64,000 bases of DNA from positions 62,161-126,160 of the forward strand of contig MFRA01000001.1 in assembly GCA_001783215.1 (NCBI GenBank). The letters run 5' to 3'. Numbering within the stretch: the first letter of the stretch is position 1; each line of letters begins with the position of its first letter. The DNA comes from Candidatus Magasanikbacteria bacterium RIFOXYD1_FULL_40_23 (lineage in GTDB: Bacteria > Patescibacteriota > Patescibacteriia > Magasanikbacterales > GWA2-37-8). The notes beneath the pieces were generated by a model. It had not been told where the DNA came from, searched no databases, and saw nothing but the letters and a program-made list of their open reading frames with translations. Position numbers and translations under genes: made by a program. Positions 10,324 to 39,682 of the stretch are shown piece by piece.

Positions 10324-10931
10324 ATTTTTAGACTATGCTTATTTTTGTGTTTTGTCAATGCTATTAATAGGAGGGGATTTTTTTGAATAAAAAAAGGCCT
10401 CTGTCGACGCACTACTTTACCAGCCCTACGTTCGGCGGAGTGCACAAAGACGTTGTCGTCTGTGCTACCGTCCTGTGGAGATTGTTTCAGCTCCGTGAAC
10501 GTAATCGTTGGGGTGGGGTTGTAGATGCGCCTAAGAGGCCAAAGTCTATGGGTGTGCGTGTAGGATTGCGCTTTGCCTAAGCTAGGCGCTTTGGGATAAC
10601 TATTCCCAGTCCGGTTTGCTTGCTAGCTTTGCAGCTAGGGCGAAAACGGGCCCCGTCTACGCAGTTTTTTCTCCTGTTTGTTGTTTCGAGGTGGTTGATA
10701 GTGGTCGTTTCCTTCTACGTTGCAGGTCTCCTTAGAAGGAGTAGGGAGCCTGCCAACTCCAGTGTGCTGTGCGCGAGATGAGGACGGAGTTGTTGTCCTC
10801 GTTTTGAACCAGTTAACGTTCGTAAGTTTGGGTTACCGTGTTGTCTACCTAAGTGGCATGGCCAAAGGGATCTACCCCAGGTCCCGCTGGGGAACACGGT
10901 TCGCGACAGCAAAAAGAAAATACCACATCCC

Positions 10932-12887
10932 TTGAATTTTGTCAAGGGGGGTGGTATGATTTATTCGAAAACTATTATGCTAACCACAAAACAAATCCGT
11001 CAAAAATATCTAGACTTTTTTCAATCAAAAGGCCATGCAGTTATGGCTTCTGCTTTGCTTATTCCAGACAATGACCCAACTACGCTTTTTACTGGCTCCG
11101 GCATGCAGCCAATGGTGCCGTATTTATTGGGTCAAAAGCATCCGCTTGGAACTCGTATTGCCGATTCTCAAAAATGTTTTCGTAGCCAAGACATAGACGA
11201 AGTAGGTGACAATCGCCATACTGTATTTTTTGAAATGCTTGGCAATTGGTCTTTGGGTGATTATTTCAAAAACGAACAAATCCCGTGGATGTGGGAATTT
11301 ATTACCAAAGAATTAAATTTGGATCCAAAGAAATTATATTTTACTTGTTTTAAAGGTAATGAAAGTTTGGGAATTCCAAAAGACGAAGAATCGGCTGGCC
11401 TTTGGCAAAAACAATTTGCAAGTATTGGTATAGATGCCAAAGTGGGCGAGAATCCAGAAGTAAATGGTATGGGCGAAGGCGAGCGTATTTTTTATTACGA
11501 TGAAAAGAAAAACTGGTGGAGCCGAAGCGGTGTGCCGGGCAATATGCCAGAGGGTGAACCAGGCGGACCAGACACAGAAATGTTTTGGGATTTTGGCGTA
11601 GAGCTTGGCCAACACGCCAAATCCAAATATTCTTCACAGCCTTGCCATGTAAATTGTGACTGCGGTCGGTTTATGGAAATCGGCAACAATGTATTTATGC
11701 AGTATAAAAAAACTGCTGCTGGTTTTGAATTATTATCACAAAAAAATGTAGACTTCGGCGGTGGATTAGAACGTATGGCCGCTGCCGTAAACAACGACAT
11801 GGATATTTTTAAAATAGATCTATTTGATGGCATGCGACAGAAATTAGAAGATTTGTCTGGTAAACAATATGGTGCTTTTGAAAAAGAAACCTACGCATTT
11901 CGTGTGGTCATGGATCATTTACGTGCAGCTACATTTTTGGTAGGCGACGGTGTTTTTCCTTCCAACAAAGATCAGGGTTATTATGTTCGCCGTCTTATCC
12001 GTCGTTCAGTTCGTTTTGCAGAATGGCTTGGTATTACCGAAAATTTTACTACAAAAATTGTTGAATCTGTTATTCTTCAGTATGAAGATGCCTATCCAAA
12101 TTTAGTGGAGAAAAAAGACTCCATTTTAGATGGTGTTAGTAAGGAAGAAGAGAAGTTTCGTCGTACTTTATCGCAGGGCTTAAAAATTTTTAGAGAAAAA
12201 ACCGCAACTTTATCTGAAGGTCAAACAATTTCAACTGAAGATGCTTTTGATTTATATCAATCCTATGGATTTCCTATTGAGCTAACCGAGGATTTAGCAA
12301 GAGAAAATGGTCTTATTTTAGATCGGTTAGCTTTTGATGCTAAACGTAAAGAACACCAAGAATTATCTCGTGCCGGCGGAGAACAAAAGTTCCACGGCGG
12401 TTTGGCAGATCATTCCGAAATTTCTACCAGGTATCATACTGCCACTCACTTGCTTCATGCGGTGTTGCTCAAAATTTTGGGCCCACACGCTCTTCAACGT
12501 GGAAGTAATATTACCCAAGAACGCATGCGTTTTGATTTTCCTCATCCACAAAAAATGACTCCAGAAGAAATTAAACTAGCCGAAGATTTGGTAAACGCTG
12601 CTATTGCCAAAGATTATCCAGTAAGTTGGGCTGAAATGTCTTTTGAAGAAGCTAAGGCCAAAGGTGCCATTGGTTTATTTGAAGATAGATATCAGCCAAT
12701 TGTAAAAGTATATACAATGGGAGATATAAACGAAAAAGCTGTAGCAGACCCAAGCTCACCAACCTTTAGTAGAGAAGTCTGTGGTGGTCCGCATGTAGAA
12801 CACACCGGTTTGGTAGGTAAATTTAAAATTGTAAAAGAAGAGGCGGTTAGCGCGGGGATGAGAAGAATAAAAGCAATTATAGAATAA
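10932..12887 (+). CDS. alaS: alanyl-tRNA synthetase, short form lacking C-terminal C-Ala domain; true start probably internal Met near 10977
   Basis: QIRQKYLDFFQSKGH N-terminal AlaRS signature, editing-domain HTATHLLHAV (HxxxH) and CGGPHVEH zinc motif; ORF ends shortly after editing domain. Confidence 0.9.
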   Translation: MNFVKGGGMIYSKTIMLTTKQIRQKYLDFFQSKGHAVMASALLIPDNDPTTLFTGSGMQPMVPYLLGQKHPLGTRIADSQKCFRSQDIDEVGDNRHTVFFEMLGNWSLGDYFKNEQIPWMWEFITKELNLDPKKLYFTCFKGNESLGIPKDEESAGLWQKQFASIGIDAKVGENPEVNGMGEGERIFYYDEKKNWWSRSGVPGNMPEGEPGGPDTEMFWDFGVELGQHAKSKYSSQPCHVNCDCGRFMEIGNNVFMQYKKTAAGFELLSQKNVDFGGGLERMAAAVNNDMDIFKIDLFDGMRQKLEDLSGKQYGAFEKETYAFRVVMDHLRAATFLVGDGVFPSNKDQGYYVRRLIRRSVRFAEWLGITENFTTKIVESVILQYEDAYPNLVEKKDSILDGVSKEEEKFRRTLSQGLKIFREKTATLSEGQTISTEDAFDLYQSYGFPIELTEDLARENGLILDRLAFDAKRKEHQELSRAGGEQKFHGGLADHSEISTRYHTATHLLHAVLLKILGPHALQRGSNITQERMRFDFPHPQKMTPEEIKLAEDLVNAAIAKDYPVSWAEMSFEEAKAKGAIGLFEDRYQPIVKVYTMGDINEKAVADPSSPTFSREVCGGPHVEHTGLVGKFKIVKEEAVSAGMRRIKAIIE

Positions 12888-27856: not shown

Positions 27857-29524
27857 ATGACCCAAGAGCAAGCGCTGGAAATACTAAAAACCGGTGCTAA
27901 TGTTTTTTTAACCGGAGAACCCGGAGCAGGTAAGACGCATACTATAAATGAGTACGCGCGGTATTTGCGTGCCCGCAGTATAGAGCCGTCCATTACCGCT
28001 TCTACAGGTATCGCCGCTACGCATTTGGGCGGAATGACTATCTACTCTTGGAGCGGAATCGGTATTCGAAAATATTTGGATAAATACGAATTAGATAAAA
28101 TTTCTACAACCGAATATTTGGCCAAGCGTATTCGTCGTGCCAAAGTATTGATAATAGACGAAGTGTCTATGCTTTCTCCCGAAACTTTGGATATGGTGGA
28201 TGTGGTTTGCAGAAGCATAAGACAAAATAACGAAGCGTTCGGCGCGTTGCAAGTTATTTTTGTGGGTGATTTTTTTCAGTTGCCGCCAATTGTGAGAAAT
28301 GAGTTTGATCAAAATAGTCAGAGTTCAATGTTACAAACTCCCAAAGCACGTTTTGCTTACGACAGTGGTGCGTGGCAAAGAGCAAAGCCAATGATTTGTT
28401 ATCTTACCGAACAGCACCGCCAAGACGATGATGTATTTTTACAAATTTTGTCTGCTATCCGCAATAATAGTTTTGGCGCAGAGCATTTGGCAGAAGTTAA
28501 AAAGAGAAGAGTGGGAGCCGATACCGGACCAGAAAAAGCGGTGAAACTTTATACGCATAATATAAATGTAGATAGAACAAACGATGCCATGCTTGCCACC
28601 TTTGTAAACAGGCCGGTAACTTTTAGTATGTACACCAAAGGTTCTCCATCGCTAGTGGCATCTTTGCAAAAAGGTTGTTTGTCGCCAGCCACCCTTATTT
28701 TAAAAGCTGGAGCCAAAGTAATGTTTACCAAAAATAATCCGAAAGAAGGATTTGTAAATGGAACGCTTGGTACGGTAGAAGGGTTTGATAGTTATGTGGG
28801 GTTACCCATAATTCGTACCAACGATGGTCGTAAAATTACTGTAGAAAAAATGGAATGGAGTGTGGAAGAAAACGGAAAGATAAGAGCCAAGATTGAACAA
28901 GTGCCATTGCGTTTGGCTTGGGCTATAACAGTGCACAAAAGCCAAGGAATGAGTCTAGAAGAAGCGATAATGGATTTAACGGATGTATTTGAGTTTGGGC
29001 AAGGGTATGTGGCCTTGTCGCGTGTACGCAGGCTTTCTGGTTTGTATTTACTTGGTTGGAACGAAAGAGCGTTTCAGGTACATCCGGAAGTGCTGGCCAA
29101 AGATATAGATTTTCGGGCTAGCTCCGATGGTGCGCAAGAAGCATTTGGTAAAATTCCAAAAGAAGAATTGGAAACAATGCATAAAAATTTTATGAAGGTG
29201 TGCGGAGGGGATATAAAAGAAAAACCAGTGGCTGATTTGGAATCTGGTGATGAAATAAAATATGCGCCGGTAAATGGTAATGATTATGTGCCAGGAAAGA
29301 AAAAAAATAAATCTAGTAAAAAAGAAAAAGGCCACGGTTTTGATAAAATAAGAGAAAAACATCCAAACGCATTTCGTCCGTGGAGCAAAGAACAAGACGA
29401 AGAATTAAGAGAATTTTTTTCTAATGGTATACCGATAGAAGAATTGTCTAAAACTTTTGGCCGTAAAACCGGTGCGATTACTATGCGACTAGTGAAGCTT
29501 GGGTTGGTAGAAGAGGGTGAATAA
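27857..29524 (+). CDS. PIF1/RecD-like SF1 helicase with C-terminal HTH-like extension
   Basis: Walker A GEPGAGKTHT, LIIDEVSM Walker B, FVGDFFQLPPI, helicase C-terminal motifs; C-terminus RPWSKEQDEELREFF...GAITMRLVKLGL. Confidence 0.75.
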   Translation: MTQEQALEILKTGANVFLTGEPGAGKTHTINEYARYLRARSIEPSITASTGIAATHLGGMTIYSWSGIGIRKYLDKYELDKISTTEYLAKRIRRAKVLIIDEVSMLSPETLDMVDVVCRSIRQNNEAFGALQVIFVGDFFQLPPIVRNEFDQNSQSSMLQTPKARFAYDSGAWQRAKPMICYLTEQHRQDDDVFLQILSAIRNNSFGAEHLAEVKKRRVGADTGPEKAVKLYTHNINVDRTNDAMLATFVNRPVTFSMYTKGSPSLVASLQKGCLSPATLILKAGAKVMFTKNNPKEGFVNGTLGTVEGFDSYVGLPIIRTNDGRKITVEKMEWSVEENGKIRAKIEQVPLRLAWAITVHKSQGMSLEEAIMDLTDVFEFGQGYVALSRVRRLSGLYLLGWNERAFQVHPEVLAKDIDFRASSDGAQEAFGKIPKEELETMHKNFMKVCGGDIKEKPVADLESGDEIKYAPVNGNDYVPGKKKNKSSKKEKGHGFDKIREKHPNAFRPWSKEQDEELREFFSNGIPIEELSKTFGRKTGAITMRLVKLGLVEEGE

Positions 29525-29549
29525 ATTAAATTTGCTTTAAAAATATTTC

Positions 29550-29578
29550 GAGCCCCGGGATGTGTGTCCTCGGGGCTC
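29550..29578 (-). terminator. intrinsic terminator of island gene 29607-29909
   Basis: gagccccgggatgtgtgtcctcggggctc hairpin; on minus strand followed by T-run (cgaaatattttt). Confidence 0.65.
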
Positions 29579-29606
29579 TTGTGTGTCTTGCGGGCGAGTA
29601 TGTCGT

Positions 29607-29909
29607 CTACTTGATGGCCTCGATCTTCTCGAGGACGTTGCGGCGACTCATCCGACCGACGAAGAAGTCCTGATCGAAATGGTCGGTGAGGGTGATCACC
29701 ATCGTGCGGTTGTGGTCGCGGCCCCAGTCGTTGGTGAACCGGACGATCCCGAGGATCTTCTGGTCATCCGCCGACAGCGATACGTACCCGCCGCCGATCA
29801 TCCCCGACAAGTACTGCAGGTCGGGGATCGCCTCCTTCTTGAAGGTGACCTTGACCTGCTTCTTGCCCTTGAGTGCTTCTTCGAGCGCCTTCACGATCTG
29901 GTCTTGCAT
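29607..29909 (-). CDS. small protein (100 aa) of unknown function, G+C-rich island 1, paralog of 30067-30369
   Basis: start at MQDQIV preceded by GGAGG 8 nt upstream; own promoter and terminator; N- and C-terminal similarity to neighbour (MQxxI..EAL.G..K..V..K..A.P.D ... VT.T...D.D.FV..M......EKIE). Confidence 0.55.
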   Translation of the reverse strand: MQDQIVKALEEALKGKKQVKVTFKKEAIPDLQYLSGMIGGGYVSLSADDQKILGIVRFTNDWGRDHNRTMVITLTDHFDQDFFVGRMSRRNVLEKIEAIK

Positions 29910-29965
29910 CTGAGCCTCCAACATTCATCTTGGGCGTAAGTACCCAAGAAGGTCACTAGGACCGA

Positions 29966-29997
29966 ATAAAATATCATATATTTTGGCTTTTGTCAAT
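29966..29997 (-). promoter_or_regulatory. sigma70-like promoter TTGACA-17-TATTTT for 29607-29909
   Basis: minus-strand reading ccaTTGACAaaagccaaaatatatgaTATTTT; leader ~50 nt with hairpin TCTTGGG..CCCAAGA. Confidence 0.5.
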
Positions 29998-30027
29998 GGT
30001 AGTGTGTTTTTAAAAATAAAAAAAACG

Positions 30028-30053
30028 AGCCCGGGACATGTGTCCTGGGGGCT
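30028..30053 (-). terminator. intrinsic terminator of island gene 30067-30369
   Basis: gagcccgggacatgtgtcctgggggctc hairpin, near-identical to 29550 hairpin; T-run on minus strand. Confidence 0.65.
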
Positions 30054-30066
30054 CTGTTGCAGGGGT

Positions 30067-30369
30067 CTAGGCAATGACTTCGATCTTCTCGACGGCGTTG
30101 CACATCTCCCGAACAAATTGGTCTCTGTCGACTACCTTGGTAAACGTTACCGCAACGGCGCGGTCGTCTTGGCTTTTCCATTGGCGATACCTTTGGAAGT
30201 GCATAAGGCCAGCTCGGCAGCTTGCCGTTAGCCATAGCATGCCACGATTGAACATGGACATTAGGCGTTTGACATCACCCGGTGCTGCATCTTCTTTGAG
30301 AAGGACCTCGATTTTACGGGTGCCCTGTAGGGCTTCGTCTGTGACTCGGGCGATTTTTGCTTGCATCTT
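30067..30369 (-). CDS. small protein (100 aa) of unknown function, G+C-rich island 1, paralog of 29607-29909
   Basis: start at MQAKIARV with AGAGGT SD; ORF-track upstream extension lacks SD; own promoter/terminator. Confidence 0.55.
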   Translation of the reverse strand, partial: KMQAKIARVTDEALQGTRKIEVLLKEDAAPGDVKRLMSMFNRGMLWLTASCRAGLMHFQRYRQWKSQDDRAVAVTFTKVVDRDQFVREMCNAVEKIEVIA

Positions 30370-30424
30370 TACCTCTTGCGTTGGTTTCGCACCCGAAGGC
30401 ACGGGAAAATGGCTAGGGTTGCAT

Positions 30425-30453
30425 AGAATACCATATATTTTTGAATTTGTCAA
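30425..30453 (-). promoter_or_regulatory. sigma70-like promoter TTGACA-17-TATTCT for 30067-30369
   Basis: minus-strand reading aaTTGACAaattcaaaaatatatggTATTCT, similar over its length to the 29966 promoter. Confidence 0.5.
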
Positions 30454-30549
30454 TTATTTAAGCTAAAAGTGTAGATTTGCCAGTGTCTGGCTTGTAGAAT
30501 TTAAAAAAGAGGGGTACAATGCAGCCAAATTAATTTAACTATACAATTT

Positions 30550-33294
30550 ATGCAGAATAGAAATATTTTGGGAGGGATAAGGAAAGTCTTAAAAATCAGC
30601 GCTATCGGTGTCGCTTTTTTTGTTTTTGGAGTGCCGAATTTGGTTAATGCTTTGGTAATCCTGCCAAATAGCGTGCCGATGATAGAGCCTTTAAATAATG
30701 CAGAGTATTCGTATGGGGTAAAACCCAGTGAAAGTTTCTTGCCGGAGCAACCTGTGTTTAAAGTTATTTATACAGATGATGATAACGATGCTCCGTTTTA
30801 TTTGAATGTCGTTGTAAATGGCATACCATATTCTATGGCGCTGGTTCCTGGCCAAGAAGGAGAATATTTTGATGGGTTACAATATGAGTTTGTTACACCT
30901 ACAGGTACTTTCGAGGTTGGTACGTATTCGTATTATTTTGAATCTAGTGATGGGCAATATACATATCCGTGGATGTCCAGTGAATCTGGAGATATTATAA
31001 ACTATGCGCGCATGCCAGAATTAGGTACTAGAACTTTTGAAATAAAAGCAGGGTCGAACGATCCGGTGATTATTATTCCTGGGATTTTGGGAACAGAGTT
31101 AGTGAGAGGTGATGAAACTTTATGGTTGGATTTGGTAAGAACTATGATTACGCCAGGGGACGAATTTTTGGATCCGCTGATGATGAATGTTGATGGGGTT
31201 GGTACTGATCCCCAGGTTATGCCTGGGGATGTAGTTAGGGTCAAAGGAAATATATTAATAAAATTTCACTATCTTGATTTGCTGATTAGTGAGTTTAACA
31301 GTATTGGTTATCAGGAAAATACTGATTTATTTGTTTTTCCTTATGACTGGCGTTTAGATAATGCGTCTACAGCCCAAAAACTAAAAGATAAAATCGAGTC
31401 TGTTTTGAGGCAAACGGGAAGTGCTAAAGTAACTTTGGTTGCGCATAGTATGGGAGGTTTGATTGCAAAACAATATATCGTAAACAATGGTTCGGATAAA
31501 GTAGATAAGTTAATTTTTATTGGCACTCCGCATCTTGGTTCTCCGGATGCTGCTAAAACAATATTGTTTGGCAGTAATTTAGGAATTGAATTTGTATTTT
31601 CTTTTTTAAATGAGCTAGAAATTAAAAAAATTGCTCAAAACATGCCGTCAATTTACCAGCTTTTACCGAGTCCTGCATATTTCGCTAAACTAGGAGGGTA
31701 TTTTTACGACCTAACTATTCATAAAGTTTTCAATTTTGATGAAACATCTGCGTATCTGAGCGGTCAAGGTAGTAATCAGAGTATGCTTGACGGAGTCGCC
31801 AGCTTTCATTCTTCGCTTGATAATTTAGATTTTTCCAACATAAAAACATATAATATTATAGGTTGTAAGACAGAAACAATTACAAAAATAATTCGCCGTA
31901 ACAGTGAAGTTGGTGGTGATGAGTATTATATTGGTATGCAAACTGGTGACGGAACAGTCCCGCTCGGTAGTTCTGATTTGGCAGGTTTTACAGGGGTAGA
32001 AAATTTTTATGTGAAAAATACTGTTCATAGTAAAATGCCCAGTCTTGATAATATAAGAATGTTGGTTACTGAAATTATTGGCAATACCGTAGATAAAGAT
32101 GCTTTACCAATAGATGTCGAAATGAATAAGGAGGGTTGTGAAGTAACAGGTAAATTAGTTTCAGTCCATAGTCCGGTTGATTTGCATGTGTATGACGCTA
32201 GCGGAAATCATGCAGGTCCGATTGAAAACGGTGATCTTGAGCAAAATATACCAGGAGCAACCTACAAAAATATTGCCAATAATAAATTTATTTTTTTACC
32301 GGAAGACAATAATCAAATTTATACTATTAAACTTGACGCAACTGCCACTGGAACTTTTAGTTTCCGGGTTCAAAATATTATAAGTGATCAGCCAGAAAAA
32401 ACTGTGTATTATAATGATATACAGATTGTTCCACAAAGTAGTGCTGAGATTGAAATATCTCCTTACAGTTCTGATACAAATTTACAATTTGATATTAACG
32501 GAACAGGAAATCATGTCGCCATCCCTGCTAACTCAGTTCTTAGTGAGGATGAATTAGAAGATTATACAAAACCAACGACCACTATCTTTATAGTCGGTAC
32601 TGTTGGGGGTAATGGTTGGTATGTTTCCACTACATCTATTTCGCTCTCGGCAACCGATGATAATTCTGGTATACTTAGAATAGAGTATAGTTTAGACAAT
32701 GGCGCTGTATGGCAGCCGTATTCCGCACCGTTTGTTATTTCTGAGCAAGGTATAAGCACTGTATTATATAAATCAATTGACCGAGCTGGTAACAAAGGAG
32801 AGGTGGGGCAAGCCATTATATATATTGATACTGAATCACCTGAAGCAATTATCGTATTTGATCCTGATAAAAAAGATATTGTGATAAGTGGAGAGGATAA
32901 TCTAACACCAGTTGGTATTTACGATTTAGGTAGTAGGGTAACTTTAATTGACGAGGCGGGAAATAGCACTACATTGAATTTTGTTGAAAAAAATCGTAAG
33001 TGGTCTTATACAACTGCGTTGAAGAGTATTTTATATAACGGAGTTGAATTAGAAAAAATAACTAAAAATAGATTTAATTTTAAGTGGAAATATAAACATG
33101 ATAATTTAACAGAGCTAGAACAAAGTATTTTACTGAAAGATGTTTTTAGATTAAGAGCCGAGTATAATTTAAAGAAAAACATTACATATATTCGTGGTAA
33201 AGATGCCGAAACTGGAAAAATCAAGGAAAAAATGGATGGCTTAGTTCTGGTTAAAATTAAAACTAGTAAAGGGAGTTTAAACTACAATTATTAA
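30550..33294 (+). CDS. secreted/anchored giant protein with lipase-like alpha/beta-hydrolase domain and C-terminal beta-rich (Ig-like) region
   Basis: N-terminal signal/TM ISAIGVAFFVFGVPNLVNA; VTLVAHSMGGLIAKQY (AHSMG lipase pentapeptide as in Bacillus LipA); PVIIIPGILGTEL oxyanion-region-like. Confidence 0.65.
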   Translation: MQNRNILGGIRKVLKISAIGVAFFVFGVPNLVNALVILPNSVPMIEPLNNAEYSYGVKPSESFLPEQPVFKVIYTDDDNDAPFYLNVVVNGIPYSMALVPGQEGEYFDGLQYEFVTPTGTFEVGTYSYYFESSDGQYTYPWMSSESGDIINYARMPELGTRTFEIKAGSNDPVIIIPGILGTELVRGDETLWLDLVRTMITPGDEFLDPLMMNVDGVGTDPQVMPGDVVRVKGNILIKFHYLDLLISEFNSIGYQENTDLFVFPYDWRLDNASTAQKLKDKIESVLRQTGSAKVTLVAHSMGGLIAKQYIVNNGSDKVDKLIFIGTPHLGSPDAAKTILFGSNLGIEFVFSFLNELEIKKIAQNMPSIYQLLPSPAYFAKLGGYFYDLTIHKVFNFDETSAYLSGQGSNQSMLDGVASFHSSLDNLDFSNIKTYNIIGCKTETITKIIRRNSEVGGDEYYIGMQTGDGTVPLGSSDLAGFTGVENFYVKNTVHSKMPSLDNIRMLVTEIIGNTVDKDALPIDVEMNKEGCEVTGKLVSVHSPVDLHVYDASGNHAGPIENGDLEQNIPGATYKNIANNKFIFLPEDNNQIYTIKLDATATGTFSFRVQNIISDQPEKTVYYNDIQIVPQSSAEIEISPYSSDTNLQFDINGTGNHVAIPANSVLSEDELEDYTKPTTTIFIVGTVGGNGWYVSTTSISLSATDDNSGILRIEYSLDNGAVWQPYSAPFVISEQGISTVLYKSIDRAGNKGEVGQAIIYIDTESPEAIIVFDPDKKDIVISGEDNLTPVGIYDLGSRVTLIDEAGNSTTLNFVEKNRKWSYTTALKSILYNGVELEKITKNRFNFKWKYKHDNLTELEQSILLKDVFRLRAEYNLKKNITYIRGKDAETGKIKEKMDGLVLVKIKTSKGSLNYNY

Positions 33295-36111: not shown

Positions 36112-36369
36112 TTATCGGGGTACACGCACCTTTTGGGGTCCGTACCTTCTACAGGCGATGTCTTCCTCGGTAATATCGTTGAGGTCGAATTCCATGGAAG
36201 GCGTAAAACCGCCGGTCATGCTAGTGAAGAAGTCCTCTAGCCACTGGTTGAATTCCTTGCCCAGGGACTGTAAGAACGCAATCGTCCAGTAGGTCAGCTC
36301 TTCTCCCAAGGAGCTGAGAGAATCTGACAATTCGTCAATCAACTTCTGAAACTCACTTTTCTTCTTCAT
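36112..36369 (-). CDS. small acidic protein (85 aa), G+C-rich island 2
   Basis: AGAGGA SD before ATG; upstream TTGACC promoter-like box (36420-36415); MKKKSEFQKLIDELSDSLSSLGEELTYW... Confidence 0.5.
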   Translation of the reverse strand: MKKKSEFQKLIDELSDSLSSLGEELTYWTIAFLQSLGKEFNQWLEDFFTSMTGGFTPSMEFDLNDITEEDIACRRYGPQKVRVPR

Positions 36370-36432
36370 GGGTTCCTCTTCCCAGTATTTAACCTATCAT
36401 ATTTTAGATTAGACGGTCAATTATATACAGTA

Positions 36433-36467
36433 ACAAAAAACACTCTGTATTATAGAGTGTTTTTTGT
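36433..36467. terminator. bidirectional intrinsic terminator (A-run / palindrome / T-run)
   Basis: aaaaaacactctgtattatagagtgttttttg: stem AACACTCT/AGAGTGTT flanked by A6 and T6. Confidence 0.65.
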
Positions 36468-36603
36468 TATCCGAGTGAGGTTATATGGCTGCAAATTTGT
36501 TCACCACCATCTTTCTAAAAGACAAGTTTTATCTCTAGAAAGATAGTGAGGTGGCGAACGAATGTTGCCAGGCTCACTGTTAAACGACGTTATAGTCGGA
36601 GGG

Positions 36604-36984
36604 CTAGAAGCCCAGTGTTGCGAGAGCCTGATCGGCTTCGTCGGGAGAGCAAGTGCCCATCCGTTGAGCGATCATGATCTGGCTCGCAACAGGTGTTGCT
36701 TGCGGCAACAATTCCTCGAGCACAGACCGGCGCAAAACCATGAGCGCTTGCAGAATCGAGAGTCGATCCAACAAGGGCAGGTTCTTCTGCTGGATGCGCA
36801 ACGCAAGGACCCGAAGGTCCATTGTGCCGAACAGTACCATGCAGGCTTCGTTGTGTGAGCGAAAGCTCGGGGACTGGAAACCCCCGGGCAGTTCGCGTAA
36901 ACTGCCATCCTGGCAGAGCTCCCCAGTAGCGAGGATGAACTGACCAGTGTGGCCGATGGGCTTGACGAAAACTCGCTCGTTCAT
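36604..36984 (-). CDS. small protein (126 aa), island 2 (start at MNERVFV)
   Basis: GGAGG 10 nt upstream of ATG; balanced composition unlike overlapping Arg/Ser-rich alternative frames; own promoter. Confidence 0.55.
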   Translation of the reverse strand: MNERVFVKPIGHTGQFILATGELCQDGSLRELPGGFQSPSFRSHNEACMVLFGTMDLRVLALRIQQKNLPLLDRLSILQALMVLRRSVLEELLPQATPVASQIMIAQRMGTCSPDEADQALATLGF

Positions 36985-37049
36985 AATGATGGCCTCCAAG
37001 CCTGGTTGAGAGAACGGTTTGTTCCCTCAGCGGGCAGAAAGAACGCGTT

Positions 37050-37109
37050 ATTTTGCCGAGGGAAAGGAAAAGACGATCTTTTCGTATGTTCTTTTCCCTG
37101 GCAAAAGGC
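37050..37109 (-). promoter_or_regulatory. conserved structured 5' UTR hairpin (UUUUGCCAGGG...CCCUCGGCAAAA), copy 1 of 3
   Basis: transcript reads ccttttgccagggaaaagaacatacgaaaagatcgtcttttcctttccctcggcaaaat; outer and inner inverted repeats; ~90 nt upstream of start codon. Confidence 0.55.
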
Positions 37110-37138
37110 GTTACTGCGTGGATTGTAAAGAGCTCTGT

Positions 37139-37167
37139 AATATAGGTTAAAATCTTGCCTTTGTCAA
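37139..37167 (-). promoter_or_regulatory. sigma70-like promoter TTGACA-17-TATATT for 36604-36984
   Basis: minus strand taTTGACAaaggcaagattttaaccTATATT. Confidence 0.55.
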
Positions 37168-37367
37168 TAGGCAAACCCACCACTCTATTTGGAAATATAC
37201 CACTGGGGATATATAATCAATATACACCTAAGATGTGCCTAAAGTTACAATCTATACAAAAAATCAAAAACAGCCTTATCTAAAGCTGTTTTTTAATGGC
37301 GACGTCGTGGTATGCACGACGTCGGCGAGTCGTAATTCTTCTAAACCCGTATCATCAGTCCTGTGGA

Positions 37368-37634
37368 CTAGATGATCTCGAGTTCGACCCTCTCGTACTT
37401 GATTCCCGGATGGGTGGGCTCGTCCCAGTCGAAGTATAGCTCATACACCGCTTCGTCAACGGCAGCAGCGATCTCTTCTGGTGTTCCCAACAACATCGGC
37501 ATGGAGTCGTTGTCGTTTGCAGTCTCCTCGGTTTGAGGAGTGCTTCCGTTGTCTTCTAGAGACTGACCACGTTGATGGGTCATCAGCACGGATTCTGCAA
37601 GTGCGAGGAACTGCGGATCTTCAGGACGAATCAT
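37368..37634 (-). CDS. small acidic protein (88 aa), island 2
   Basis: AGGAG SD; MIRPEDPQFLALAESVLMTHQRGQSLEDNG...; own promoter. Confidence 0.5.
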   Translation of the reverse strand: MIRPEDPQFLALAESVLMTHQRGQSLEDNGSTPQTEETANDNDSMPMLLGTPEEIAAAVDEAVYELYFDWDEPTHPGIKYERVELEII

Positions 37635-37714
37635 TCAGTAGCTCCTAGGAGAGTGGGGTTTATCAATACGAGACGACGCGCAAGTTTGGTTGCGGTGTCT
37701 CATTATGACCAAAA

Positions 37715-37743
37715 ACCATACCATAAAATGTTGTTAAAGTCAA
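37715..37743 (-). promoter_or_regulatory. sigma70-like promoter TTGACT-17-TATGGT for 37368-37634
   Basis: minus strand cTTGACTttaacaacattttatggTATGGT. Confidence 0.5.
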
Positions 37744-37770
37744 GAGCGTAGGGTAGAAAATGATTAAAAT

Positions 37771-37817
37771 AAAAAAAGCCTCGCTTTCGCAAGGCGTCGC
37801 CGTGTATTTTGTTTTTT
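37771..37817. terminator. bidirectional intrinsic terminator
   Basis: aaaaaaagcctcgctttcgcaaggcg...tattttgttttttgg: hairpin GCCTCGC/GCAAGGC with A-run and T-run flanks. Confidence 0.55.
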
Positions 37818-37824
37818 GGCTGTT

Positions 37825-38184
37825 TTAGCCAACAATTATGGATCGCTTGACCCGATTTTCCGTAAGGTAATCAATCACTTCGGAAAGGTCTGGGTTGCTG
37901 TTTCGGATATCTCTGAAACGTGTGTTGAGCAGAGACTTTTTTCCAAAGATAGATCTTGCATACGGCAATCCATTTTGGACTATTCTCTTGACGTCGAAAC
38001 GTCTATCTTTGTTCGGCCCTTCGAAGATAACGACAGTTTCGTCATCTTCGACGATTACAGAGCAGCTCCAATCTTCTTCGCCCACCAACAGATGTGGTGG
38101 ACCAGAATCATCTTTGGGCGGTTCAAGTTTTAGCACGAGCAGGTTGATGCTGCGGAGCAAACCCATGATATGTTGTACCGTCAT
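37825..38184 (-). CDS. small protein (119 aa), island 2
   Basis: GGTGAGG SD; promoter TTGAAA-17-TATATT upstream; plus-strand overlapping ORF lacks signals. Confidence 0.5.
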   Translation of the reverse strand: MTVQHIMGLLRSINLLVLKLEPPKDDSGPPHLLVGEEDWSCSVIVEDDETVVIFEGPNKDRRFDVKRIVQNGLPYARSIFGKKSLLNTRFRDIRNSNPDLSEVIDYLTENRVKRSIIVG

Positions 38185-38217
38185 GGTGCCTCACCCTTTG
38201 GTTGTTTAGTATAGACG

Positions 38218-38246
38218 AATATACCACCAAACCTTTATTTTTTCAA
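38218..38246 (-). promoter_or_regulatory. sigma70-like promoter TTGAAA-17-TATATT for 37825-38184
   Basis: minus strand gcTTGAAAaaataaaggtttggtggTATATT. Confidence 0.5.
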
Positions 38247-38312
38247 GCTAAATTTACAACGTCACTCTTTAGCGGATGTTGCGTGGTATAACTTAATTAA
38301 GTCAAAAAAAAG

Positions 38313-38362
38313 ACCTCGTATTGAAGTTGCCTTGGGGGCTATTCAATACGAGGCTGAACGTC
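38313..38362 (-). terminator. intrinsic terminator of 38403-38798
   Basis: 12-bp stem CCTCGTATTGAA/TTCAATACGAGG with 16-nt loop, T8 on minus strand. Confidence 0.65.
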
Positions 38363-38402
38363 TTGGTCTGCTTTGCGACTGATGTCGCTGGTAGAACCTA
38401 GT

Positions 38403-38798
38403 CTACTGCTGAGCGGTGTTGCGGGGGTACAAGTAGATGTAGCACCCCGTGTCGTGCGAGTCGACCGCGTAGCCGGTCTGGTCCTTCTCGGCCTCGAGGC
38501 GGAGCTCGACGTTGGTCGGCAGGCTGCGGACGATCGCGTTGATCTCCTTGTTGGCCTTGGCGCAGGGGATGCGGCCGAGGCGAGCGCGGAGCTCGAGGTC
38601 CTGGATCTCCTTGATCGCGGCCTTGAGCTGCTTCTTGCTGATGCTCTTGGCAGCCGCGGCGCGCACGGGCTTCTTCTCGTTGGTGTCGTTCGCCTTCGAG
38701 ACGAAGCCGGCGTCGGCGTGGGCCGTGCTGATGCCGAGGTCGAACAGGGCGATGAAGCCGACGGTCAGGGCGATGGCGATGATGGCGATGCGGGTCAT
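38403..38798 (-). CDS. small secreted protein (131 aa, signal peptide), island 2
   Basis: MTRIAIIAIALTVGFIALFDLGISTAHA signal-peptide-like N-terminus; GAGGAG SD; lysine/alanine-rich mature part. Confidence 0.55.
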   Translation of the reverse strand: MTRIAIIAIALTVGFIALFDLGISTAHADAGFVSKANDTNEKKPVRAAAAKSISKKQLKAAIKEIQDLELRARLGRIPCAKANKEINAIVRSLPTNVELRLEAEKDQTGYAVDSHDTGCYIYLYPRNTAQQ

Positions 38799-38857
38799 GG
38801 GACTCTCCTCGGTAACGGGTTCGTAACGTTAACTGCTTGCCGGCGCACAAAGGTGTG

Positions 38858-38914
38858 CTTTTGTGCCGGGGAAGTGAAAGTGTAGCCTCTACACTCCCTT
38901 TTCCCTGGCAAAAC
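38858..38914 (-). promoter_or_regulatory. conserved structured 5' UTR hairpin, copy 2 of 3
   Basis: transcript reads cgttttgccagggaaaagggagtgtagaggctacactttcacttccccggcacaaaag; same outer arms UUUUGCCAGGG/CCCCGGCA.AAAA. Confidence 0.55.
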
Positions 38915-38945
38915 GCAAACAGTTATTATTAAAGATCAACAGACA

Positions 38946-38974
38946 ACTATACCATAAAACTAGGACTTTGTCAA
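38946..38974 (-). promoter_or_regulatory. sigma70-like promoter TTGACA-17-TATAGT for 38403-38798
   Basis: minus strand ccTTGACAaagtcctagttttatggTATAGT. Confidence 0.55.
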
Positions 38975-39040
38975 GGGGTTGATTTGGCGAAATCACGTCG
39001 CGTAGCGTCCATTGAACGCGACGTTTGGCTAATTTTAGGC

Positions 39041-39084
39041 AAAAAAACAGCGCTACCTACACCTAGTTGGTGAGTGGTAGCGCC
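39041..39084 (-). terminator. intrinsic terminator of 39116-39529
   Basis: minus strand gcgctaccactcaccaactaggtgtaggtagcgc then tgttttttt. Confidence 0.55.
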
Positions 39085-39115
39085 TGCGTTGGTACGGCTC
39101 TAGTCGCAGTTGCGA

Positions 39116-39529
39116 CTATGGCCAGATAAGTGGAATGTCCATGCTGGGGTAGATGGCCTCCAGGGTGTAGAGGTCCATGTCCATCACGGACAGGTACCAC
39201 TCGAAGTCGAAGAGTTCGACGGAAGTCGTGGGAGGGTTAGCATCCCACCAAGCACAGTTGCCAAACCGCCACCTTCGCAGAGCTTCGTAGTACTCCGCTT
39301 CCAGCTCGACAAGCTTGTCTCGACAAGCTTGGCTAGTCGTGCCGCCGATATAGCGACAGGTAAGCTTTGGGTATTGGAGCTGGCTCTCGGCGAGGGTGTA
39401 TCGCTGCTTCAGCTTCTTGCACGTATCGTAGTCGTACGTGCCCGAGGGTGGCGTATCGGCATAGGCCGTGCCGACGTTCGGCAGCAGCATGCCCAGAGCA
39501 ATACACATCGCGATCAGGATCTTCACCAT
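39116..39529 (-). CDS. small secreted Cys-containing protein (137 aa), island 2 (start at MVKILIAM)
   Basis: GGAGAG SD before internal Met; MVKILIAMCIALGMLLPNVGTAYA signal peptide; four Cys in mature part. Confidence 0.55.
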   Translation of the reverse strand: MVKILIAMCIALGMLLPNVGTAYADTPPSGTYDYDTCKKLKQRYTLAESQLQYPKLTCRYIGGTTSQACRDKLVELEAEYYEALRRWRFGNCAWWDANPPTTSVELFDFEWYLSVMDMDLYTLEAIYPSMDIPLIWP

Positions 39530-39564
39530 TTCTCTGTCTCTCCAATTTCTTCTGTGACGGTTGA

Positions 39565-39619
39565 TTTTTACCAAGACGAAAGAAGCTACGAATTTCGCAT
39601 ATTCTTTTATCTCGGTAAA
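39565..39619 (-). promoter_or_regulatory. conserved structured 5' UTR hairpin, copy 3 of 3 (with compensatory ACC:GGU for GCC:GGC)
   Basis: transcript reads ctttaccgagataaaagaatatgcgaaattcgtagcttctttcgtcttggtaaaaat. Confidence 0.55.
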
Positions 39620-39652
39620 GAGCAGACCGCTTGGTTAAATGAGCGATTCGCC

Positions 39653-39682
39653 ATCTTATATTAAAAAATGCCTTTTGTCAAT
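39653..39682 (-). promoter_or_regulatory. sigma70-like promoter TTGACA-17-TAAGAT for 39116-39529
   Basis: minus strand taTTGACAaaaggcattttttaataTAAGAT. Confidence 0.45.

What the first reader, a model, noticed from the sequence alone, without database searches (positions are those of the whole stretch)
29537..30470. Second G+C-rich islet: tandem pair of diverged paralogous 100-aa genes whose promoters and terminators are more conserved than the coding sequence
Organisation:
- Two minus-strand genes, 29607-29909 and 30067-30369, sit in tandem.
- Each has a TTGACA-17-TAT(T/C)xT promoter, an SD and a GAGCCC(C)GGGA...TCC(T)(C)GGGGCTC hairpin terminator.

Conservation pattern:
- The two terminators are nearly identical, and the promoters are clearly alignable.
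- The proteins share only their N-terminal part (MQxxI...EAL.G) and C-terminal part (VT.T...D.D.FV..M.....EKIE) and differ in the middle.
- This pattern fits duplication of a whole expression cassette, with gene conversion or selection acting on the regulatory parts.

Context:
- The islet has the same high-GC, opposite-strand, SD-rich style as the 36-39.7 kb island.
- It lies between a PIF1-like helicase and the secreted lipase-like protein.
- The function is unknown.
Basis: seen in the sequence. Interest (0 to 1): 0.65.

Follow-up and report, generated by a model that had tools for sequence, protein, structure and literature searches.

The report
Self-contained small-gene cassettes, oddly GC-rich
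Two neighbouring 100-residue genes in an uncultured groundwater bacterium are real, related protein genes, each with its own promoter and terminator; they belong to an undescribed protein family found so far only in this bacterial group, and their silent codon positions are kept unusually GC-rich for unknown reasons.

Summary
On the minus strand, gene B (29607..29909) and gene A (30067..30366, not 30369) are paralogs (33% identity, E 1e-15). Each has an exact TTGACA-17-TGnTAT promoter, a 52-nt leader with a hairpin, an SD and a two-tier GC hairpin terminator. A-versus-B identity is 74% (promoter), 84% (terminator) and about 52% (coding sequence).

Both are true protein genes. A orthologs give dN/dS 0.16-0.26. 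A profile search finds 195 clusters of about 100-aa proteins. AlphaFold gives pLDDT 97, a ferredoxin-like alpha/beta domain. No Pfam, PHROG, PADLOC, NCBIfam or PDB match exists.

Every family member whose DNA I could inspect sits in a Candidate Phyla Radiation (CPR) genome. Ten of the eleven with a readable upstream and 3' flank repeat the whole cassette design. Copy number at this locus is 1, 2 or 3 among close relatives, and one relative carries a copy at another site.

GC3 is 0.90 (B) and 0.58 (A) against a host value of 0.316±0.044, while GC2 is host-like and GC3 is not decaying. The best reading is moron-like autonomous expression cassettes in a bacterial chromosome. Protein function and the cause of the GC3 excess remain open.

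The parts
30425..30453 (-). Promoter of cassette A: -35 TTGACA (30453..30448), 17-nt spacer, TGG extended -10, -10 TATTCT (30430..30425)
   Evidence: Sequence; regex scan of the window; the same design in all 11 family cassettes with a readable upstream region. Function as a promoter is inferred, not measured.
30367..30418 (-). Leader of A (about 52 nt from the predicted start). The 5' CCCUAG box is predicted to pair with the SD AAGAGG around a central GUGCC-UUCG-GGUGC hairpin.
   Evidence: RNAfold. Orthologs have GUACC/GGUAC, so the window's two changes give G-U pairs, which only work in RNA of this strand. The transcription start is inferred.
30067..30366 (-). Gene A, 99 aa + stop; family member; GC3 0.58
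   Evidence: dN/dS 0.16-0.26 among three orthologs with no indels; family HMM E 1.9e-29; GC by codon position.
30018..30058 (-). Terminator of A: two-tier hairpin GAGCCC..GGAC-ACAU-GUCC.GGGCUC followed by U8
   Evidence: RNAfold -17.8 kcal/mol, z -4.0; conserved shape in 15 cassettes with compensatory changes.
29968..29996 (-). Promoter of cassette B: -35 TTGACA (29996..29991), 17-nt spacer, TGA extended -10, -10 TATTTT (29973..29968)
   Evidence: 79% identical to the promoter of A over 42 nt (repeat D1).
29910..29961 (-). Leader of B (about 52 nt): 5' UCCUAG box, central CUUGGG-loop-CCCAAG hairpin, SD GGAGG
   Evidence: RNAfold. The ortholog in L003 has a different stem sequence (CCUGGAC/GUCCAGG) at the same place.
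29607..29909 (-). Gene B, 100 aa + stop; family member; GC3 0.90, GC2 0.30
   Evidence: Identical protein on two other metagenome contigs; family HMM E 4.7e-34; AlphaFold2 pLDDT 97.1; composition.
29539..29578 (-). Terminator of B: GAGCCCCG.GGA-CACACA-UCC.CGGGGCUC, then GAAAUAUUUUU (interrupted U tract). It lies about 25 nt from the stop of the convergent helicase gene, so it may also terminate that gene.
   Evidence: RNAfold -21.9 kcal/mol, z -4.9. Bidirectional use is inference from position.
27857..29524 (+). Flank: PIF1-like helicase, convergent with the cassettes; its 3' end is the conserved anchor of the array in relatives
   Evidence: Pfam; L004 has A directly next to it; synteny arfB/GIY-YIG/helicase is conserved in L005-L012; L013 keeps arfB and the helicase without a GIY-YIG match.
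36112..39681 (-). Related context, not part of the finding: six further minus-strand monocistronic cassettes with TTGACA promoters, long leaders, GC3 0.48-0.98 and unrelated orphan proteins
   Evidence: orthologous island in the same order in L143.

Best explanation
The islet is a short tandem array of autonomous, moron-like expression cassettes in the chromosome of a CPR bacterium. The source name of P0002, which is gene A called from an upstream start (111 aa), points to Candidatus Magasanikbacteria.

Expression (inferred from sequence). Each cassette is predicted to be transcribed on its own from a near-consensus sigma-70-type promoter into an mRNA of about 0.43 kb. The 5' end is base-paired: a leader hairpin, and in the A/B/C clade a YCCUAG box that pairs with the SD. 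The 3' end is a conserved two-tier GC hairpin that would act as intrinsic terminator and 3' protector. The cassettes lie opposite to the surrounding genes and are closed by their own terminators, so they should be insulated from them.

Product (fold predicted with high confidence; roles inferred). The product is a cytoplasmic protein of about 100 aa, a ferredoxin-like alpha/beta domain from an undescribed family seen only in CPR contexts. It has no catalytic Cys/His motif. It occurs as single-chain tandem duplicates, and fused or adjacent to small Cys4 modules. It therefore most likely acts as a dimer (homo, or A/B hetero) that binds a partner, either a protein or RNA, rather than as an enzyme.

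Array dynamics (inferred). The array probably gains and loses units by unequal recombination between the conserved promoter and terminator modules; 1, 2 and 3 copies are observed.

Composition (excess shown; cause inferred). The GC excess is confined to synonymous sites and is held at equilibrium. This points to selection on the mRNA (stability, resistance to AU-directed RNases) or to GC-biased gene conversion at a recombination-prone locus, not to recent import from a GC-rich donor.
For: Coding status and family:
- dN/dS is 0.16-0.26 among A orthologs.
- A profile search finds 195 clusters at E<=1e-3, almost all 97-105 aa.
- The AlphaFold2 model has pLDDT 97.1.

Architecture:
- All 11 cassettes with a readable upstream region have exact TTGACA and a 16-17-nt spacer (17 nt in 10); 8 of 11 have TGn; 10 of the 11 leaders (38-53 nt) fold into a clear hairpin (L005 D only weakly).
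- 15 terminators fold to the same two-tier hairpin, -15 to -24 kcal/mol, with compensatory changes.
- The hairpin motif occurs in 1.42 Mb of CPR loci only at these cassettes and their array neighbours.

Dynamics:
- L004 has 1 cassette, the window has 2, L003 has 3.
- Member D of L005 is inserted between arfB and GIY-YIG, which are 1-5 bp apart in the window and in L006-L008.

Composition:
- Searches give the GC3 and GC2 values.
- Third-position changes are S>W 9 against W>S 10, where 3.2:1 is expected under decay (p 0.0066).

Dimer and partner hints:
- P0083 and P0097 hold two family domains in one chain.
- Cys4 fusions and neighbours occur repeatedly.

Context: housekeeping CPR genes flank the family members.
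Against: - No transcript data exist, so promoter, start site and termination are all sequence inferences.
- The U tract of B is interrupted.
- Leader folds are not significant against shuffles (z -0.7 and -1.8).
- The dimer and partner-binding ideas rest only on domain fusions.
- The GC3 equilibrium test uses 19 substitutions.
- One family member (L005 D) has host-like GC3 of 0.38.
- One member (L138) has no clear -35 or GC hairpin, and one (P0008 in L141) sits second in a two-gene operon without its own promoter.
- Unequal recombination is inferred from copy-number differences, not seen as junctions.
Confidence: 0.55

Rival explanations
1. Recent horizontal import from a GC-rich donor. On this view the cassettes are foreign genes still ameliorating towards the host's 38% GC, and B arrived later than A.
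For: GC3 runs from host-like (L005 D, 0.38) through 0.58 (A) to 0.90 (B), which looks like a series of ages. One cassette is an insertion between otherwise adjacent genes. Patescibacteria genomes are reported to hold many transferred regions (PMC12455944).
Against: - GC2 of B is 0.30, typical of an AT-rich proteome and not of a genome with GC3 0.9.
- All family members with known context are in CPR-like genomes, and none is in a GC-rich one.
- GC3 of A is 0.58-0.59 in three orthologs separated by dS 0.6-0.9, with balanced S>W and W>S changes.
- 12 of 13 family genes in 9 genomes are GC3-enriched.
- Island gene 38403..38798 keeps GC3 0.98 in two genomes.
- The promoters and spacers are AT-rich and host-like.
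Confidence: 0.12
2. A conflict module: toxin/antitoxin-like, immunity or anti-phage genes, or phage-derived morons left in the chromosome. A and B would be functionally opposed or rapidly diversifying partners.
For: The cassettes have moron-like anatomy: own promoter and terminator, and deviant composition (PMC3594210). The family has a patchy distribution, variable copy number and location, and a star-like tree. Many family members are singletons in metagenomes.
Against: - A and B are homologs with separate promoters and terminators, not an operon.
- Single copies exist (L004, L136, L139).
- Purifying selection acts on A.
- There are no hits in PADLOC, PHROGs, BFVD, IMG/VR, INPHARED or PLSDB.
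- Neighbours are housekeeping genes with no phage genes.
Confidence: 0.15
3. Independent accretion rather than duplication. A and B would have arrived separately at a hot spot. Their similar ends would exist because incoming cassettes integrate by recombination through shared promoter or terminator modules, or because a local promoter and terminator were re-used.
For: - B is nearer to P0007 of another genome (50%) than to A (34%), and A is equidistant (about 0.71) from everything.
- A, B and C nevertheless share clade-specific promoter spacer, YCCTAG box and terminator features that are absent from P0007's cassette.
- A non-homologous cassette in L005 carries the same terminator at the same locus.
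Against: The tree is star-like and unresolved, so A/B/C monophyly with fast divergence of A is not excluded. No recombinase, repeats or target duplications were found; only AT-rich 15-nt imperfect inverted repeats lie at the borders, and these are likely chance.
Confidence: 0.15
4. The GC-rich stretches are structured non-coding RNA genes and the ORFs are by-products of GC richness.
For: GC-rich islands in AT-rich genomes are often RNA genes. Long ORFs also occur on the opposite strand. A similar GC-rich unit at 10385-10945 has no ORF.
Against: - Substitutions concentrate at third positions, with dN/dS 0.16-0.26 and no indels.
- GC is 0.56/0.30/0.90 by codon position.
- There are 195 protein clusters.
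- The AlphaFold2 model has pLDDT 97.
- There is no Rfam match even at E<=1.
Confidence: 0.02

Closest known systems
Phage morons (HK97/HK022-type 'more DNA' elements)
   Same: Single small ORF with its own promoter and stem-loop terminator, and base composition unlike the neighbours. One cassette is inserted between genes that are adjacent in related genomes (L005 D between arfB and GIY-YIG). Definition as in PMC3594210.
   Different: Here the cassettes lie in a bacterial chromosome among housekeeping genes, not in a phage or prophage. No family member was found in viral or plasmid collections. The same protein family keeps the same cassette design across the genomes sampled. The compositional shift is confined to synonymous sites.
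Integron gene cassettes / attC arrays
   Same: Arrays of small, mostly orphan ORFs, each ending in an imperfect palindrome, with variable cassette number at one locus.
   Different: Integron cassettes are promoterless and end in attC sites with RYYYAAC/GTTRRRY cores recognised by an integrase. Here every cassette has its own promoter, and the palindrome is a GC hairpin plus U tract without those cores. No integrase gene was noticed next to the arrays; this was not searched systematically.
Ferredoxin-like alpha+beta domains (ABM/LsrG-type dimeric barrels, ACT, HMA, NusG-NTD, RRM-like)
5'-terminal stem-loop mRNA stabilisers combined with intrinsic terminators (established bacterial mRNA-decay knowledge, from my own knowledge)
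   Same: A hairpin at or within 0-2 nt of the predicted 5' end in five cassettes, a base-paired 5' end in the A/B/C clade, and a strong 3' hairpin.
   Different: No half-life or 5'-end data exist for these organisms. The pairing of the 5' box with the SD would also lower translation initiation, which simple stabilisers do not do.

Membership tests
Phage moron | Own promoter upstream of a single ORF | tested here: met
   Exact TTGACA, 17-nt spacer, TGn + TAT(T/C)xT in both cassettes. Sequence level only.
Phage moron | Own factor-independent terminator | tested here: met
   GC hairpins of -17.8 and -21.9 kcal/mol, z -4.0 and -4.9. The U tract is perfect for A and interrupted for B.
Phage moron | Composition differs from surrounding genes | tested here: met
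   GC3 is 0.90 and 0.58 against 0.316±0.044.
Phage moron | Insertion between genes that are adjacent in related genomes | tested here: met
   L005 member D lies between arfB and GIY-YIG, which are 1-5 bp apart in the window and in L006-L008. For the islet itself the downstream flank differs among relatives, so only the helicase side can be compared.
Phage moron | Resides in a phage or prophage genome | tested here: not met
   Flanks are PIF1 helicase, RF-1-domain protein, GIY-YIG and a lipase-like protein here, and tRNA synthetase, IF2, RNR and YidC elsewhere. There are no hits in IMG/VR, INPHARED or BFVD.
Integron gene cassette | Promoterless ORF followed by an attC site with conserved R''/R' cores | tested here: not met
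   Each ORF has its own promoter. The 3' palindrome is GAGCCCC..GGAC..GTCC.GGGGCTC + T-run, without GTTRRRY.
Integron gene cassette | Integron integrase and attI next to the array | not tested
   Not searched systematically. The ORFs next to the array are a helicase and a lipase-like protein.
Type II toxin-antitoxin pair | Two unrelated small genes in one operon under one promoter | tested here: not met
   A and B are homologs, each with its own promoter and terminator. Single-copy loci exist.
Any curated protein family (Pfam, NCBIfam, PHROGs, PADLOC) or solved structure | Significant profile or sequence match | tested here: not met
   No match above any cut-off.
Known RNA family (Rfam 15) | Covariance-model match | tested here: not met
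   No match at gathering threshold in the window, nor at E<=1 in 29400-30600.
Intrinsic (Rho-independent) terminator | GC-rich hairpin immediately followed by a U tract, with structure kept by compensatory change | tested here: met
   15 instances fold alike. Compensatory changes include GG/CC to AG/CU and CCCC/GGGG to UUCC/GGAA. Termination itself is not testable with these tools.

The most novel reading that the evidence does not exclude
CPR bacteria may carry a class of portable promoter-leader-ORF-terminator modules ('chromosomal morons') with two unusual properties. First, synonymous sites would be actively held GC-rich (GC3 up to 0.9-0.98 in a genome with GC3 0.32). This would be either a dedicated way to harden selected mRNAs against AU-directed decay or the footprint of a local GC-biased recombination hot spot. 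Second, the family-wide conserved 3' hairpin would be more than a terminator: a recognition element for the encoded RRM-like ferredoxin-fold protein (autoregulation or mRNA protection) or for the machinery that moves and amplifies the cassettes.
Probability: 0.15. Interest if true: 0.8.

Novelty: new variant of a known kind. Interest (0 to 1): 0.5.

Why it matters
CPR/Patescibacteria genomes are small, and a large share of their genes have no known function. This finding has four consequences.

1. It defines one such family: at least 195 sequence clusters, a confident fold and no annotation.
2. It shows that the family travels as a complete expression unit. This gives direct sequence models for promoters, leaders and terminators in organisms that cannot yet be grown.
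3. It exposes a sharp compositional rule. The GC excess is at silent sites only. It is stable across orthologs and shared by unrelated neighbouring cassettes. Simple horizontal transfer does not explain it, and existing metatranscriptome and population data could test it.
4. If the silent-site bias reflects selection on mRNA stability or a recombination bias, that would inform how reduced genomes regulate and diversify accessory genes.

Tried and rejected
- **Rfam and tRNA scans** of the window and of the islet at a permissive threshold found nothing.
- **Word-indexed protein search** found only 4 clusters at first and 7 with a 50-sequence profile. The exhaustive HMM search was needed to see the family.
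- **Back-translated pattern scans** of genome contigs and metagenome contigs for the family found no confirmed relative.
- **Terminator pattern scans** of metagenome contigs and viral contigs gave 43 + 2 hits. All were generic palindromic terminators in unrelated genomes, with no family gene nearby. The hairpin shape by itself is therefore not diagnostic.
- **Mobile-element collections**: viral-contig scan with the GSRKVxITFK motif, INPHARED and PLSDB tblastn all gave no hit.
- **First AlphaFold run** with 4 sequences was poor (pLDDT 67); the 50-sequence run superseded it.
- **Fuzzy-regex search** timed out.
- **Fusion partners against the window island**: I looked for homology between fusion-partner domains and the window's island proteins and found none.
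- **Flanking repeats as signs of transposition**: only short AT-rich matches of doubtful meaning turned up.
- **Adenine-directed (DGR-type) mutagenesis** as the cause of the composition was considered and rejected. By my reading of the sequence, A and T are equally depleted at third positions of gene B.
- **The + strand ORF 29562..29939** was considered and rejected as the real gene. The minus-frame protein is conserved and under purifying selection.
Full report
**1. What is there**

The window is about 38.7% GC, and nearly all long ORFs are on the + strand. Between a PIF1-like helicase (27857..29524) and an LCAT/alpha-beta-hydrolase protein (30550..33294) lie two minus-strand units.

Cassette A consists of:
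- a promoter, TTGACA (30453..30448), a 17-nt spacer, TGG, and TATTCT (30430..30425)
- a leader of about 52 nt
- the SD AAGAGG
- the ORF 30366..30067 (99 aa)
- a hairpin GAGCCC..GGACACAUGUCC.GGGCUC followed by U8

Cassette B consists of:
- a promoter, TTGACA (29996..29991), a 17-nt spacer, TGA, and TATTTT (29973..29968)
- a leader of about 52 nt
- the SD GGAGG
- the ORF 29909..29607 (100 aa)
- a hairpin GAGCCCCG.GGACACACAUCC.CGGGGCUC with an interrupted U tract

The proteins are homologous: 33% identity, E 1e-15. Identity by segment is 74% for the promoter, 51% for the leader, 47/68/40% at codon positions 1/2/3, and 84% for the terminator. About a third of the promoter identity is the consensus elements themselves.

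**2. They are protein genes**

Orthologs of A on two other metagenome contigs (L003, L004) differ mainly at third positions, without indels. dN/dS is 0.16-0.26 at dS 0.63-0.93. GC by codon position in B is 0.56/0.30/0.90.

An exhaustive profile search of 1.84 billion cluster representatives gave 195 proteins at E<=1e-3 and 62 at E<=1e-10. Nearly all are 97-105 aa. The shared motif is ALxGSRKVxITFK...LLxM...W..D.NRT..VTLT..FD..WF..RM..ALEKIEVV.

With a 50-sequence alignment, AlphaFold2 gives pLDDT 97.1 and pTM 0.87. The RNA-gene alternative is excluded, since Rfam finds nothing even at E<=1.

**3. The family is undescribed**

There is no match in Pfam, PHROGs, PADLOC, NCBIfam or PDB sequences.

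Source names, where present, are 'hypothetical protein' from Candidatus Magasanikbacteria, from Parcubacteria group bacterium, or from a MAG named only 'bacterium'. Every contig I could read has CPR-type housekeeping neighbours, such as CysRS, IF2, RNR, YidC/RNase P protein and DXP synthase.

No member was found in IMG/VR, INPHARED or PLSDB.

Some members are single-chain tandem duplicates (P0083, P0097). Others are fused to, or adjacent to, a small Cys4 module (CxDCGKRxDQW..DEEC) or a C-terminal Cys-rich domain. One neighbour has a ClpX-type zinc finger at 31.7 bits.

**4. The cassette design is a family trait**

All 11 cassettes with a readable upstream region, from seven genomes, share the following:
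- an exact TTGACA
- a 16-17-nt spacer (17 nt in 10)
- TGn in 8 of 11
- a TAnnnT -10 in 10 of 11
- a 38-53-nt leader, with a clear hairpin in 10 of 11 (weak in L005 D)
- an SD

In five cassettes the hairpin starts within 0-2 nt of the predicted 5' end. In the A/B/C clade the 5' YCCUAG box is predicted to pair with the SD around a central hairpin whose sequence differs between paralogs.

In A, the window's stem differs from its orthologs by two changes that create G-U pairs. This fits an RNA-level constraint on this strand. The leader folds are not significant against shuffles, so this part is inference.

Fifteen 3' hairpins fold into the same two-tier structure: a 6-8-bp GC outer stem, a 5'-side bulge, and an inner GGAC/GUCC stem. 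Energies are -15 to -24 kcal/mol. Compensatory changes include AGAC/GUCU and GAGUUCCG/CGGAACUC.

A loose motif for this hairpin occurs in 1.42 Mb of CPR loci only at these cassettes and at cassettes sharing their arrays.

A pattern scan of public metagenomes returned only unrelated generic terminators. The shape alone is therefore not special.

There are two exceptions among the members inspected. L138 lacks a clear -35 and GC hairpin. P0008 in L141 sits second in a two-gene operon.

**5. Dynamics**

At the helicase 3' end, L004 has one cassette (A), the window has two (A, B) and L003 has three (A, C, B).

The nearest species representative (L005, helicase 80% identical) carries a member D at another site. 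D lies between the RF-1-domain gene and GIY-YIG, which are 1-5 bp apart in the window and in L006-L008. L005 also has a non-homologous cassette with the same terminator downstream of its helicase.

Other relatives have no family member within 10 kb.

In a neighbour-joining tree, B and C pair. A sits on a long branch, as far from B (0.71) as from members of other genomes, and B's nearest protein relative is P0007 (50%). Yet A, B and C share clade-specific promoter-spacer, 5'-box and terminator features that P0007's cassette lacks.

Orthologous promoters are more alike than paralogous ones, so ongoing gene conversion is not indicated.

Two readings remain open:
- duplication of whole cassettes with fast divergence of A
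- accretion through the shared ends

No repeats or enzymes of a mobility system were seen.

**6. Composition**

Sixty other ORFs in the window, my own selection of likely genes, have GC3 of 0.316±0.044 (maximum 0.47). B has 0.90 and A has 0.58. The six island cassettes have 0.48-0.98. GC2 stays in the host range.

Twelve of 13 family genes in nine genomes exceed their neighbours by 0.1-0.6. The exception is L005 D.

A keeps GC3 of 0.58-0.59 in three orthologs. Polarised third-position changes are 9 S>W against 10 W>S, where about 3.2:1 is expected if GC3 were decaying to 0.30. The binomial p is 0.0066 on small numbers.

In the island, gene 38403..38798 has GC3 0.98 in both the window and L143. 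Its dS is 0.205, against 0.64-1.6 for the adjacent cassettes.

The excess is therefore synonymous-site specific and maintained. Recent import from a GC-rich donor explains this poorly. Selection on the mRNA or GC-biased gene conversion fit better, and neither is shown.

**7. Most likely mechanism**

The most likely mechanism is autonomous monocistronic units of the phage-moron type (definition in PMC3594210), but resident in a CPR chromosome. They would be insulated by opposite orientation and by their own terminators. They would produce structured-end mRNAs for a small ferredoxin-like protein that probably works as a dimer with a protein or RNA partner. The array would change size by recombination between its conserved ends.

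Shown:
- coding status
- the family
- a high-confidence predicted fold
- the architecture at sequence level
- copy-number and site variation
- the compositional pattern

Inferred:
- transcription limits
- leader function
- dimerisation
- the recombination route
- the cause of the GC3 excess

Protein function is unknown.

**8. Verdict**

The finding is real and richer than described. It is a new variant of a known kind: moron-like cassettes carrying an undescribed protein family seen only in CPR contexts. The genuinely puzzling feature is the silent-site composition. Interest is moderate, at 0.5.

Noticed in passing
window 10385-10945, minus strand: A promoter of the same style (TTGACAAAATTCAAGGGATGTGGTATTTT) is followed by about 528 nt of 53% GC sequence. 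It has no credible ORF and ends in GGCCUUUUUUU. RNAfold z is -4.2 and there is no Rfam match. This is a candidate large structured RNA, divergent from the alanyl-tRNA synthetase gene.
   Followed up: partly
window 38403-38798 (minus) and L143 956-1339: This orphan secreted-type protein gene has GC3 0.98 in both genomes. dS is 0.205 against 0.64-1.6 for neighbouring cassettes, and omega is 0.76. Synonymous sites look constrained. Only four homologous clusters exist, all unnamed.
   Followed up: partly
window 36112-39681 (minus) and L143: Six monocistronic GC3-rich cassettes encode unrelated orphan proteins, two of them with signal peptides. At least five recur in the same order in a related metagenome contig; the third is matched only at DNA level. 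The island is therefore a stable block rather than a random accumulation.
   Followed up: partly
window about 38860-38925 and about 37045-37115 (minus): The long leaders of two island cassettes share TTTTGCCAGGGAAAAG - hairpin - CCCYGGCAAAA. This may be a common cis-regulatory RNA element.
   Followed up: no
L005 6955-7132 (minus): Downstream of the helicase in the closest species representative lies a cassette that encodes a protein with a very acidic C-terminus. The readable C-terminus does not resemble the family. It ends in the same GGACACACGTCCCGGGGC terminator. The contig ends inside it.
   Followed up: no
L131 4297-4572; L141 1606-2160; P0038, P0063, P0009, P0036: The family domain is repeatedly fused to, or next to, a small Cys4 module (CxDCGKRxDQW..DEEC) or a C-terminal Cys-rich domain. 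In L132 the neighbour has a ClpX-type zinc finger.
   Followed up: partly
L005 4392-4947; L009 9198-9763; L010 9233-9620; L012 9209-9751: The junction between the RF-1-domain gene and GIY-YIG is tight (1-5 bp) in four genomes. Elsewhere it holds different inserts: a family cassette in L005, what looks by eye like a second GIY-YIG-type gene in L009 and L010, and another ORF in L012. It appears to be an insertion hot spot.
   Followed up: partly
whole window: All eight cassettes and the RNA candidate are on the minus strand. By my ORF selection, 58 of 60 other genes are on the + strand, and the cumulative GC skew rises almost monotonically across the window. The cassettes are probably head-on to replication.
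   Followed up: no
L001 1-118 and 1562-2505: This metagenome contig matches the window at 100% only over 119-1561, the two cassettes and part of the helicase. It shows no similarity outside that stretch, so it may reflect strain rearrangement or a chimeric assembly.
   Followed up: no
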